Source of the DNA: Planctomycetaceae bacterium
GTDB lineage: Bacteria > Planctomycetota > Planctomycetia > Pirellulales > UBA1268
Direction: 5' to 3'
DNA: 64,000 nucleotides
Assembly (NCBI GenBank): GCA_040376455.1
Contig: JBEIQP010000001.1
Coordinates: 15-64,014 of the forward strand
Each line of letters opens with the position of its first letter. Within the stretch, counting starts at the first letter, position 1. Positions 43,291 through 44,136 of this stretch are shown here, piece after piece. The position numbers were made by a program, and so were the translations under genes. The notes below the pieces were generated by a model. It saw nothing but the letters and a program-made list of their open reading frames with translations, did no database searches and was not told the origin of the DNA.

Positions 43291-44136
43291 ATGCCCGCTC
43301 CCAGGTCGCCAGCCGCCCTGTCGTCGCCCGCCCGGCCGAGGCTCCACCTCCTGCTCGAACCGCTCGTCACGCGGGCGGCGGGCTCCACCGCCGACCGGAC
43401 GATCCCGGCCCGATACCATCCGTTCGTCGTCGTCGGTTCGCCCGACCGCACCGCGCGATGGTTTGCCGATCTGATTGCGGCTCGAACCGACCCCGCGGGA
43501 AACTCGGCCGTGGAGTTTTGGGACGGGGCGGCCCTCGGCCAGGCCATCGGGACGGCGCTCGCGGGGGACGAACTCTTCAAACTCCGCGCGCGGGTGGTGG
43601 CGACGTCGCTGCTGCTCGTCGCCGATGTCGAGCGGATCGGGTCGGCGGAGCGGCAACGCGCGTTCGCCTGGCTTCTCGACGAGGCGGCCGCGGCTGGATC
43701 CGTCTTCTGCGTGTCGCTGGCAGTGCCGCCCGCCGCTTCCGCGCTCGACGCGATGCTCGCTTCCCGCCTGGCGGGCGGCCTGGTCATCCCGCTGCCGGAA
43801 CCGGTCGCGGTCCGCCAGGCGGCGGAGCCGCCAGGCAGCAGCGTGCGGCAACCGACGCTGCGCCGGATCATCCGGCTCACGGCCCGCCACCATGGCCTCC
43901 AGCCCGAGGAGATGATCGGGCCGTCGCGACGCCGGTCGGTGGCTGCGGCCCGCAGCGTCGGCATGTACCTGGCCCGCGTCCTCACCACCAAGAGCCTGCA
44001 GGCCATCGGAGACGCGTTCGGCGGCCGCGATCACACGACCGTCATGCACAGCCTGCGACTCGCCACCGAGCGGTTCGGCGACAATCCCTGGCTCGCCGCC
44101 GACTTGGCGAGCCTCATCGCCGCCATCCGCACCTGA
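43291..44136 (+). CDS. Short DnaA-like protein with a conserved domain IV HTH, a degenerate AAA+ core and no domains I-II
   Basis: C-terminus [50 protein letters not shown] (DnaA_C-like). [10 protein letters not shown] and [14 protein letters not shown] align with DnaA Walker B and box VII. [12 protein letters not shown] sits at the P-loop position. Confidence 0.75.
   Translation: [281 protein letters not shown]

What the first reader, a model, noticed from the sequence alone, without database searches (positions are those of the whole stretch)
43291..44136. DnaA-like protein at the dnaN locus keeps the DNA-binding domain IV but lacks the Walker A P-loop and domains I-II
Seen: the 281-aa ORF directly upstream of the origin-like gap and dnaN ends in a near-canonical DnaA domain IV ([47 protein letters not shown]). 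It retains recognisable domain III remnants ([10 protein letters not shown] at the Walker B position, [14 protein letters not shown] at the box VII region). Where DnaA has GxxGxGKT/S, this protein reads [12 protein letters not shown]. Only about 40 residues precede that point, so domains I-II cannot be present. Established: in model bacteria, ATP binding via the P-loop drives DnaA oligomerisation and origin melting, and domain I recruits the helicase. Hda-type regulators lose domain IV, not the P-loop. Inference: this is either a nucleotide-independent origin-binding DnaA derivative (a regulator or minimal initiator) or evidence of a modified initiation mechanism in this lineage. A DciA-like gene sits two genes downstream.
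Basis: partly seen in the sequence, partly recalled or inferred. Interest (0 to 1): 0.7.

Follow-up and report, generated by a model that had tools for sequence, protein, structure and literature searches.

The report
DnaA orthologue without ATP-binding site
At the replication origin of an uncultured planctomycete, the gene in the place of the universal initiator DnaA keeps its DNA-binding domain and a stripped ATPase fold but has lost its ATP-binding loop, lid and N-terminal domains, and a whole clade shares this, which questions whether ATP switching is needed to start replication there.

Summary
ORF 43291-44136 (281 aa) has a canonical DnaA domain IV (PF08299, 9e-24) and no Bac_DnaA ATPase hit. 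[12 protein letters not shown] replaces GxxGxGKS. An independent assembly (96% identical) shows the same.

Only the alpha/beta core (aa 13-168) remains, joined to domain IV by a disordered linker. An AF2 model (pLDDT 86.8) matches DnaA structures best.

The gene is the positional orthologue of dnaA. The order nifS-like, dnaA, dnaN, dciA, gyrB recurs in ten related loci, and the GC skew flips here. About 80 relatives of 264-357 aa form one lidless family in uncultured Planctomycetia. One clade keeps GPxGxGKS (45/45). The window's clade (33 clusters) has lost it, with Ala at the Walker lysine in 94%. That clade still keeps the arginine finger, the core fold and the DNA-reading residues.

Absence of domains I-II is general to the five full-AAA+ planctomycete DnaAs examined here, not special to this protein.

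Most likely this is a nucleotide-independent origin-binding DnaA. I found no description of it in the literature searched.

The parts
43291..44136 (+). dnaA-like gene, 281 aa. It is the positional orthologue of dnaA, reduced to the AAA+ alpha/beta core plus domain IV.
   Evidence: ORF. Pfam and NCBIfam. A family profile hits DnaA structures in two stretches. AF2 model with pLDDT 86.8. Foldseek top hits are DnaA 8btg, 1l8q, 3r8f and 2hcb. Synteny.
43327..43794 (+). Remnant of AAA+ subdomain IIIa (aa 13-168): an N-terminal helix and five beta strands with their helices. No lid follows.
   Evidence: Secondary structure of the model. Profile positions 38-183 align to B. subtilis DnaA 138-286. Residues G79, D130, G136, S142, R159, G163 and L164 are 97-100% conserved within the P-loop-less clade.
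43426..43461 (+). Degenerate Walker A, [12 protein letters not shown] (aa 46-57). Ala55 stands at the Walker lysine position and Asp52 lies inside the former loop.
   Evidence: Alignments. Lys is replaced by Ala in 94% of the clade. An acidic residue lies in the loop in 24 of 33 members, against 0 of 45 in P-loop-positive relatives.
43609..43638 (+). Walker B strand remnant, [10 protein letters not shown] (aa 107-116). The Asp is shifted by one position relative to its relatives.
   Evidence: The Walker B position holds D or E in 31 of 33 clade members. The window has A111 followed by D112.
43762..43803 (+). Box VII region, [14 protein letters not shown] (aa 158-171). Arg159 is the equivalent of the DnaA arginine finger and is invariant.
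   Evidence: R159, G163 and L164 are invariant across all clades. Mapping to E. coli R285 comes from the alignment with canonical DnaA and my own numbering of the E. coli sequence.
43795..43857 (+). Low-confidence Pro/Ala-rich linker (aa 169-189) in the place of the lid. It is a hot spot of strain-level change.
   Evidence: pLDDT drops to 57 here. Twelve of the 19 differences between the window and L090 in this gene, including a 3-nt indel, lie in 43805-43843.
43858..44133 (+). DnaA domain IV (aa 190-281), a helix-turn-helix that binds the DnaA box.
   Evidence: PF08299, 9.2e-24. Foldseek TM 0.91-0.95 and rmsd about 1 A to 1j1v and 3pvp. R213, R221, D247, H248 and T249 are invariant and H253 is over 90% conserved.
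44137..44733 (.). Origin-like intergenic region between the dnaA-like gene and dnaN.
   Evidence: The minimum of cumulative G-C lies at 45267. Mean skew is -0.034 to the left and +0.041 to the right, Mann-Whitney p = 3.6e-6. The block architecture is conserved in five loci.
44366..44374 (+). Single DnaA-box-like site, TTGTCCACC.
   Evidence: In 6 of 7 short-family loci TT[ATG]TCCAC occurs once, 314-513 bp upstream of dnaN, always in the same orientation relative to dnaN.
44507..44553 (+). Pyrimidine-rich stretch, relatively A+T-rich (up to 55% A+T in a 70% GC genome). It is a candidate unwinding element.
   Evidence: A+T profile. A comparable CT-rich block is present at the same relative place in L081, L086, L082 and L084. 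The function is inferred.
44643..44651 (+). Conserved TCGGGTACA block, about 90 bp upstream of the dnaN start. It is probably part of the dnaN promoter.
   Evidence: Invariant in five loci. The promoter role is an inference. The sigma-70 consensus scan found nothing in this region.
41986..43155 (+). Class-V aminotransferase gene (NifS/cysteine-desulfurase-like), always adjacent to the dnaA gene in this group.
   Evidence: PF00266, 2.5e-39. It is adjacent in all ten related loci and in L092, in either gene order.
44734..45846 (+). dnaN (sliding clamp).
   Evidence: PF00712, PF02767 and PF02768.
45877..46218 (+). dciA (helicase operator).
   Evidence: PF05258, 2e-13. DciA is known to sit in the dnaA-dnaN-recF-gyrB operon, including in Planctomycetes (PMC5109545).
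46231..48717 (+). gyrB.
   Evidence: It is 91-93% identical to many MAG proteins named Planctomycetia, Pirellulales or Planctomycetota.

Best explanation
This gene is the dnaA orthologue of an uncultured lineage of Planctomycetia (Pirellulales-like). It has been reduced step by step.
- No domains I-II, as in the other planctomycete DnaAs examined here.
- Loss of the AAA+ lid, where sensor II lies, in the common ancestor of a 'short' family.
- Loss of the Walker A loop in the sub-clade that holds the window.

What remains is an AAA+ alpha/beta core that cannot bind ATP in the normal way, a flexible linker, and a fully conserved domain IV.

Most likely mechanism (inferred). Domain IV docks on the conserved DnaA box (TTGTCCACC, 44366) in the origin next to dnaN. 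The protein self-associates through the retained AAA+ core surfaces: the invariant arginine finger Arg159 and the initiator-specific helices. Acidic residues in the former P-loop may stand in for the ATP phosphates. The protein thereby organises or opens the neighbouring pyrimidine-rich, A+T-enriched stretch without any ATP/ADP switch. DciA and DnaB would be brought in through contacts other than domain I.

Shown here: orthology by position, the losses themselves, their conservation across a clade, the fold, and the skew switch at the locus. Inferred: DNA binding, oligomerisation and the initiator role.
For: The losses are real. They come from Pfam and NCBIfam, from alignments and from an independent assembly with the same loop.

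The fold is retained. The AF2 model has pLDDT 86.8. The best structural matches are DnaA (8btg, 1l8q, 3r8f, 2hcb), and domain IV superposes on 1j1v and 3pvp at about 1 A. A family profile hits the DnaA core and domain IV but skips residues 287-345 of B. subtilis DnaA.

Positional orthology is supported by the gene order nifS-like, dnaA, dnaN, dciA, gyrB in several groups of loci.
- P-loop-less loci: window, L090, L081, L094, L095.
- P-loop-positive short loci: L082/L083, L084/L085 and L086 (where the contig ends within the gene after dciA).
- A Planctomycetia MAG with a 372-aa DnaA that has a full AAA+ domain: L075.
The nearest full-AAA+ relatives, P0083 and P0087, sit directly upstream of dnaN or a dnaN-positioned gene; their other neighbours match only in part.

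The NJ tree shows the short family as monophyletic. The P-loop-less sequences form one clade, with one extra loss elsewhere.

Constraint is selective. Walker A positions are free and Lys has become Ala in 94% of the clade. In contrast G79, D130, G136, S142, R159, G163 and L164 are 97-100% conserved. The domain IV residues R213, R221, D247, H248 and T249 are invariant. In the strain pair, the neighbouring genes show 15 synonymous and 1 non-synonymous change. The core remnant shows 3 and 3, and domain IV shows 1 and 0.

The locus behaves as an origin. The GC skew flips within about 1 kb. A single box-like site and a CT-rich block are conserved in position and orientation.

No other DnaA homologue lies in the 64 kb.
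Against: Only 64 kb of the genome could be examined. A second, complete dnaA or another initiator elsewhere is therefore not excluded.

The origin region carries one box-like site, not the cluster typical of oriC.

The gene is the fastest-evolving one of the cluster. It is 41-46% identical between loci whose DnaN is 80-85% and GyrB 87-88% identical. That fits relaxed constraint and is unusual for an essential initiator.

In model bacteria ATP binding is required for DnaA filament formation and origin melting (established knowledge; reviews PMC5742627, PMC5448010). E. coli DnaA lacking the N-terminal domains opens oriC in vitro but does not support replication (PMC5448010).

Oligomerisation, DNA binding and absence of nucleotide binding were not tested.
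Confidence: 0.5

Rival explanations
1. The protein is an origin- or promoter-binding regulator rather than the initiator. It would have lost initiator activity together with ATP binding. It would then act as a DnaA-box-binding repressor or activator (of dnaN-dciA-gyrB, or of origin access). A different, unlinked initiator, either a second DnaA or a non-homologous protein, would fire the origin.
For: ATP binding is essential for DnaA initiation in all studied systems (PMC5742627, listed). The gene evolves much faster than its neighbours. Only one box-like site is present, and it lies upstream of the dnaN operon. A precedent exists for a domain-IV-only regulator, HdaB (PMC7049699). The weak NCBIfam hits NF004686-8 may be that family, but this identification is from memory.
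Against: The gene occupies exactly the dnaA position. Every full-length planctomycete DnaA whose context was examined is found at that same position, not elsewhere. No paralogue was seen in the 64-kb window or in about 10-20 kb around nine related loci. The AAA+ core and the arginine finger remain under selection, which a pure HTH regulator would not need.
Confidence: 0.3
2. The protein is a DNA-targeting, arginine-finger-donating subunit of a mixed AAA+ assembly. It would resemble the delta-prime subunit of the clamp loader or the non-catalytic ORC subunits. It would bind the origin and complete the ATP site of a separate ATP-binding AAA+ partner encoded elsewhere.
For: Arg159, the arginine-finger equivalent, is invariant even though the protein's own nucleotide site is destroyed. 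The Walker B Asp is kept in 31 of 33 clade members.
Against: No candidate partner was found. The tandem DnaA-type AAA+ proteins picked up by the N-terminal search belong to Gemmatimonadota, not Planctomycetia. The conserved Arg could equally serve in homo-oligomer contacts with the acidic residues now in the loop.
Confidence: 0.12
3. The gene is a decaying pseudogene or an assembly artefact.
For: High divergence, and no ATPase-domain HMM hit.
Against: The ORF is intact in 33 P-loop-less clusters with similar lengths. An independent assembly agrees. GC3 is typical of coding genes. The predicted fold is confident. Domain IV is strongly conserved.
Confidence: 0.03

Closest known systems
Canonical bacterial DnaA (TIGR00362; PF11638 + PF00308 + PF08299), e.g. 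E. coli, B. subtilis, Aquifex aeolicus
   Same: Domain IV has the base-reading residues (R399, D433, H434, T435 and H439 equivalents). The AAA+ alpha/beta core fold, the box VII arginine and the initiator-specific helices are present. The gene lies next to dnaN at the skew switch.
   Different: There are no domains I-II, no Walker A lysine and no lid, hence no sensor II. The Walker B Asp is shifted. The protein has 281 aa, against 399-656 aa for the characterised DnaAs (PMC5448010). It scores 90 bits against the TIGR00362 cut-off of 343.9 and has no PF00308 hit.
Planctomycete DnaA of 353-372 aa where complete (L075, L040, P0083, P0087; also L025, an ORF of at least 317 aa)
   Same: Same gene position where the context is known. 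The nifS-like neighbour is seen at L075 and L092. They likewise lack domains I-II and have a closely related domain IV.
   Different: These keep GPSGTGKS and the lid with sensor II. They are only 27-33% identical to the window protein over the core.
P-loop-positive members of the same short, lidless family (e.g. P0002, P0038, P0041)
   Same: Same architecture (core, linker, domain IV), same locus, 39-48% identity.
   Different: They retain GPxGxGKS (45 of 45) and the Walker B Asp (45 of 45), so they probably still bind ATP.
Hda / HdaA (DnaA paralogue, regulatory inactivation of DnaA)
   Same: A DnaA-derived AAA+ protein without the N-terminal domains. Foldseek places Hda structures 3sc3, 3bos and 5x06 among the hits.
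   Different: Hda keeps the nucleotide site and the lid and lacks domain IV. This is the opposite pattern of loss.
HdaB of Alphaproteobacteria (PMC7049699)
   Same: A DnaA-related protein with a domain-IV-like fold and no ATPase activity. The weak NCBIfam hits to NF004686-8 (PRK06030, described only as 'hypothetical protein') may be this family; that identification is from memory.
   Different: From my own knowledge, HdaB is a small protein that coexists with a full DnaA. It has no AAA+ core and is not at the dnaA position.
Non-catalytic AAA+ subunits of initiator or loader complexes (clamp-loader delta-prime; ORC subunits with degenerate Walker motifs). This is an analogy in how it may work, not homology of function.
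   Same: An AAA+ fold with a dead nucleotide site but a conserved arginine finger or conserved interfaces (established knowledge).
   Different: Those act inside hetero-oligomers with ATP-binding partners. No partner is known here.

Membership tests
DnaA (chromosomal replication initiator, TIGR00362 equivalog) | C-terminal domain IV helix-turn-helix with the DnaA signature (PF08299). | tested here: met
   PF08299, E 9.2e-24, 83.7 bits against a cut-off of 31.5. TM 0.91-0.95 to 1j1v and 3pvp.
DnaA (chromosomal replication initiator, TIGR00362 equivalog) | AAA+ domain with Walker A, GxxGxGK[ST]. | tested here: not met
   VGSPDRTA stands in the aligned columns, with Ala at the Lys position. No PF00308 hit up to E 0.1.
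DnaA (chromosomal replication initiator, TIGR00362 equivalog) | Walker B acidic residues at the end of strand beta-3. | tested here: inconclusive
   The window has LLLVAD, with Ala at the aligned Asp position and Asp one residue later. Thirty-one of 33 clade members keep D or E.
DnaA (chromosomal replication initiator, TIGR00362 equivalog) | Lid subdomain IIIb with the sensor II arginine. | tested here: not met
   A gap of about 60 aa relative to canonical DnaA in the alignment. The profile skips B. subtilis residues 287-345. The model shows only a disordered linker at aa 169-189.
DnaA (chromosomal replication initiator, TIGR00362 equivalog) | Box VII arginine finger. | tested here: met
   R159 in SRLAGGL is invariant in all alignments.
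DnaA (chromosomal replication initiator, TIGR00362 equivalog) | N-terminal domain I (PF11638), which mediates helicase and regulator interaction. | tested here: not met
   Only 44 residues precede strand beta-1. There is no room upstream. No PF11638 hit.
DnaA (chromosomal replication initiator, TIGR00362 equivalog) | Whole-protein HMM score above the curated cut-off. | tested here: not met
   TIGR00362 gives 90.2 bits against 343.9. NF001154 gives 39.8 against 410.
DnaA (chromosomal replication initiator, TIGR00362 equivalog) | Gene at the replication origin, next to dnaN. | tested here: met
   Synteny. GC-skew switch.
DnaA (chromosomal replication initiator, TIGR00362 equivalog) | ATP-dependent oligomerisation on DnaA boxes and origin unwinding. 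| not testable with these tools
   This needs biochemistry: ATP binding, EMSA or footprinting, and P1 or KMnO4 unwinding assays.
Hda | DnaA-type AAA+ domain with a nucleotide site, no domain IV, and a clamp-binding motif at the N-terminus. | tested here: not met
   Domain IV is present and the nucleotide site is absent. TIGR03420 does not match the window protein at E <= 0.1.
HdaB (PRK06030-type domain-IV-only protein) | A small protein (about 120-150 aa) consisting only of a domain-IV-like fold, found beside a full DnaA. | tested here: not met
   The protein has 281 aa and a folded AAA+ core. NF004686-8 score 15-21 bits against cut-offs of 136-181.

The most novel reading that the evidence does not exclude
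This protein is the only chromosomal initiator of its lineage and fires a defined origin without binding any nucleotide. It would be a natural ATP-independent DnaA, lacking the P-loop, the lid with sensor II and domain I. Its sister clade would be frozen at an intermediate stage: the P-loop kept, the lid and the second Walker B acidic residue lost. Initiation timing in these planctomycetes would then be set by something other than the ATP-DnaA/ADP-DnaA cycle.
Probability: 0.35. Interest if true: 0.9.

Novelty: new variant of a known kind. Interest (0 to 1): 0.68.

Why it matters
The ATP/ADP switch of DnaA is treated as the universal core of bacterial replication control. It underlies filament formation, origin melting, RIDA and DARS.

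Here a free-living lineage shows a clear GC-skew origin, and its only visible dnaA orthologue has lost the nucleotide site. This offers a natural experiment on which DnaA functions truly need ATP. The closely related P-loop-positive, lidless orthologues serve as built-in controls.

It also matters for annotation. The window protein scores below the curated DnaA cut-offs tested (90 bits against 343.9 for TIGR00362) and has no PF00308 hit. Genomes of this clade may therefore look as if they lack dnaA. Origin predictors that rely on dnaA and on clusters of DnaA boxes may fail on them.

Tried and rejected
1. Genome-collection scan with the family alignment. The patterns chosen (RDHTT..., AR..MY..R) match DnaA from many unrelated bacteria.

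2. Metagenome scan with the single protein. No relative was found. Exact look-up of the window protein found nothing on record. The AFDB50 fold library was unavailable.

3. A cluster of canonical DnaA boxes was sought and not found. TTATCCACA with up to 2 mismatches gives 40 hits against 32 expected in the window, and only one of them lies in the intergenic region.

4. Hits of 480-690 aa to the N-terminal domain were suspected to be nifS-dnaA fusions, because the nifS stop and the dnaA start are in the same frame. This was rejected. They are tandem DnaA-type AAA+ proteins of Gemmatimonadota.

5. The 11-nt palindrome at 44403-44434 was tested for compensatory change in the sister strain. The two changes are not compensatory.

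6. An AACCGAC repeat was considered as a second binding motif. It is enriched in three co-directional loci and absent from the two divergent ones, so the evidence is weak.

7. Rfam found nothing in the window. The sigma-70 promoter scan found nothing in the region.

8. Four literature searches and one more on degenerate Walker A found no description of planctomycete DnaA architecture.
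Full report
**Observation**

The window has about 70% G+C. 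ORF 43291-44136 (+) encodes 281 aa. Its GC3 of 0.88 is typical of the window's coding genes.

Pfam finds only the DnaA C-terminal domain (PF08299, aa 192-256, E 9.2e-24). It finds no Bac_DnaA ATPase domain. NCBIfam's DnaA equivalog TIGR00362 matches only aa 185-277, at 90 bits against a cut-off of 343.9.

The upstream class-V aminotransferase (NifS-like) gene ends at 43155. The 135 nt before the ATG contain no alternative start codon. No N-terminal extension can therefore be encoded here.

In alignments with relatives, [12 protein letters not shown] (aa 46-57) occupies the columns of V-I-V-G-P-x-G-x-[13 protein letters not shown] occupies the Walker B strand and [11 protein letters not shown] occupies box VII.

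A second assembly from another ENA sample (L090) is 99.6% identical in DNA over 15.8 kb. It encodes a 96% identical protein with the same loop. This rules out sequencing error.

Compared with canonical DnaA, about 60 residues between box VII and domain IV are absent. These form the AAA+ lid (subdomain IIIb), where the sensor II arginine lies in canonical DnaA.

A profile of the family hits solved DnaA structures in two separate stretches. Profile positions 38-183 align to B. subtilis DnaA 138-286, and positions 183-282 align to 346-445. Residues 287-345 are skipped.

An AlphaFold2 model built on 45 family members is confident (mean pLDDT 86.8). It shows a five-stranded alpha/beta core (aa 13-168), a low-confidence linker (169-189) and the domain IV helices.

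Foldseek against the PDB ranks DnaA first (8btg, 1l8q, 3r8f, 2hcb). Domain IV superposes on the DNA-bound structures 1j1v and 3pvp at about 1 A. Hda follows further down the list.

**It is the dnaA orthologue by position**

The cumulative G-C curve has its minimum at 45267. Mean skew is -0.034 to the left and +0.041 to the right (p = 3.6e-6). Genes on both sides are mostly on the + strand, so the flip is not a coding-strand effect.

The gene order nifS-like, dnaA-like, dnaN, dciA, gyrB recurs in three groups of loci.
- P-loop-less relatives: L081, L090, L094, L095.
- P-loop-positive short relatives: L082/L083, L084/L085, L086. In the first two pairs the dnaA-nifS pair is transcribed divergently from dnaN. 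In L086 the contig ends within the gene after dciA.
- A Planctomycetia MAG whose DnaA has 372 aa with a complete AAA+ domain: L075.

The nearest full-AAA+ homologues in the 5.8-billion-protein search, P0083 and P0087, sit directly upstream of dnaN or a dnaN-positioned gene. P0083 also has the nifS-like neighbour, and P0087 is followed by dciA. A Fimbriiglobus contig shows the same dnaA-dnaN adjacency. All are thus orthologues in other lineages, not hidden paralogues.

DciA's place in the dnaA-dnaN-recF-gyrB operon, including in Planctomycetes, is documented (PMC5109545).

GyrB is 91-93% identical to many MAG proteins labelled Planctomycetia, Pirellulales or Planctomycetota. Neighbouring genes of related loci include families I know as typical of planctomycetes: PSCyt2, PSD1 and DUF1501.

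**The family and the history of losses**

About 80 sequence clusters of 264-357 aa share the lidless architecture. In a neighbour-joining tree they are monophyletic relative to the 353-372-aa planctomycete DnaAs. They split into two clades. One keeps GPxGxGKS (45 of 45). The other has lost it (33 clusters, including the window). One further loss (P0045) lies inside the P-loop-positive clade.

In the P-loop-less clade the Walker lysine position is Ala in 94% and the glycines are free to vary. In contrast G79, D130, G136, S142, R159, G163 and L164 are 97-100% conserved. R159 is the equivalent of the DnaA arginine finger, by alignment with canonical DnaA and my own numbering of E. coli R285.

The Walker B Asp persists in 31 of 33 members. 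The window is an exception, with Ala-Asp.

Twenty-four of 33 members carry Asp or Glu inside the former loop, against 0 of 45 in the sister clade.

Domain IV keeps the equivalents of the base- and backbone-contacting residues. R213, R221, D247, H248 and T249 are invariant and H253 is over 90% conserved.

None of the full-AAA+ planctomycete DnaAs examined has domain I. The Walker A starts around residue 60, and PF11638 is absent from their precomputed domain lists. That part of the finding is therefore general to these planctomycete DnaAs, not specific to this protein.

**Evolutionary rate**

Between the window and related loci, GyrB is 87-88% identical, DnaN 80-85%, DciA 66-72%, the NifS-like protein 55-60% and the DnaA-like protein only 41-46%. 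This also holds among P-loop-positive members, at 45-59%.

In the strain pair window/L090, 19 of about 54 differences in 15.8 kb fall in this gene. Twelve of them, with a 3-nt indel, lie in the linker. Six neighbouring genes show 15 synonymous and 1 non-synonymous change. The core remnant shows 3 and 3, and domain IV shows 1 and 0.

The protein is therefore under selection, most strongly in domain IV. The constraint is far weaker than is usual for DnaA. That comparison rests on my own knowledge that DnaA is normally at least as conserved as DnaN.

**The origin region**

The region 44137-44733 has no cluster of DnaA boxes.

It has one box-like site, TTGTCCACC at 44366. The counterpart TT[ATG]TCCAC occurs once in 6 of 7 short-family loci, 314-513 bp upstream of dnaN. 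It always has the same orientation relative to dnaN, whichever way dnaA points.

About 140 bp downstream lies a pyrimidine-rich stretch with up to 55% A+T (44507-44553). It is conserved in kind in the other loci. Then comes an invariant TCGGGTACA about 90 bp before dnaN.

The architecture is the same in P-loop-positive and P-loop-negative loci.

**Interpretation**

Shown: a dnaA orthologue by position, with a retained AAA+ core fold and DNA-binding domain. It has no Walker A, no lid and hence no sensor II, and no domain I. These states are fixed across a diversified clade.

Inferred: the protein binds the conserved box and self-associates through the remaining core surfaces, without a nucleotide switch. 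The acidic residues in the former loop could pair with the invariant arginine of the neighbouring protomer. This is a hypothesis only.

The sister clade keeps the P-loop and the first Walker B Asp. It lacks the lid and mostly the second acidic residue. It looks like an intermediate that binds ATP but cannot regulate its hydrolysis.

The main rival is that another initiator exists elsewhere and that this protein is a regulator or a targeting subunit. I could not test this. No other DnaA homologue lies in the window or in the flanks of the related loci.

In E. coli, DnaA without its N-terminal domains opens oriC in vitro but does not support replication (PMC5448010). How DnaB and DciA would be recruited here is therefore open.

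**Comparison and novelty**

Characterised DnaAs range from 399 to 656 aa and have four domains (PMC5448010). Hda shows the opposite loss: domain IV is gone and the nucleotide site is kept. HdaB is a domain-IV-like protein described as DnaA-related (PMC7049699). From my own knowledge it is small and coexists with a full DnaA.

Five full-text searches found no description of a P-loop-less or lidless DnaA, or of planctomycete DnaA architecture. The library does not hold most subscription journals, so this is absence of evidence only.

I rate it a new variant of a known kind, with interest 0.68. The key functional question, whether this is the sole initiator, is directly testable but still open.

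Noticed in passing
L075:9173-10291; L040:1-1092; L025:41-994; L091:8001-9062; L092:3672-4754: The full-AAA+ planctomycete DnaAs examined have 353-372 aa where complete (L025 is an ORF of at least 317 aa) and lack domains I-II altogether. Walker A starts near residue 60 and there is no PF11638. Where tested, they also fall below the TIGR00362 cut-off: P0087 scores 260 bits against 343.9.
   Followed up: partly
P0289, P0295, P0301 and about 120 relatives (L093:261-1706): Gemmatimonadota (Longimicrobiales) encode proteins of 480-690 aa with two tandem DnaA-type AAA+ modules. In the three sequences read, both have an intact Walker A, there is no domain IV and there is a conserved Trp-rich C-terminus. 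The three tested score above the TIGR00362 cut-off (379-439 bits) although they have no DNA-binding domain.
   Followed up: partly
window 44403-44434: A perfect 11-nt palindrome (AACATGGTTTT / AAAACCATGTT, 10-nt spacer) lies in the origin region. The only two intergenic differences from the 99.6% identical strain L090 (44406 and 44430) both fall in its arms and are not compensatory.
   Followed up: partly
window 43805-43843 versus L090:5590-5631: A burst of 12 substitutions plus a 3-nt indel lies in the linker of the dnaA-like gene, between two strains that differ at 0.36% elsewhere. The gene holds 19 of about 54 differences in 15.8 kb.
   Followed up: yes
window 41986-43155 and the equivalent genes in L075, L081, L082, L084, L086, L090, L092, L094, L095: A class-V aminotransferase (NifS-like) gene is always next to dnaA in this planctomycete group. 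It lies upstream in co-directional loci. In divergent loci it lies downstream, and in L084 it overlaps dnaA by 4 nt. A single inversion cannot produce this pattern, so the linkage seems to be maintained.
   Followed up: no
window 43153-43293: The TGA stop of the nifS-like gene and the ATG of the dnaA-like gene are in the same frame, with no stop codon between them. This is probably chance in a 70% GC genome. Read-through would give a fusion protein.
   Followed up: partly
window 44211-44218, 44227-44234, 44345-44352 (also 43431, 43850): AACCGACR occurs 7 times in 64 kb. Five copies lie within 0.9 kb around the dnaA-like gene's 3' end and the origin region, and three of them are on the + strand upstream of the box-like site. 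The same heptamer flanks the box in L081 and L086 but is absent from L082 and L084.
   Followed up: partly
window 1-44000: Most genes to the left of the skew minimum are on the + strand. They would be head-on to a leftward fork from the proposed origin. The gene-strand bias is therefore weak or reversed on that side.
   Followed up: no
window 53153-56311 (-): A class II (B12-dependent) ribonucleotide reductase with a TSCPD domain lies about 9 kb from the origin. The same gene is near the dnaA locus in L081 and L090, and next to dnaA in Pirellulaceae SH449 (L040).
   Followed up: no
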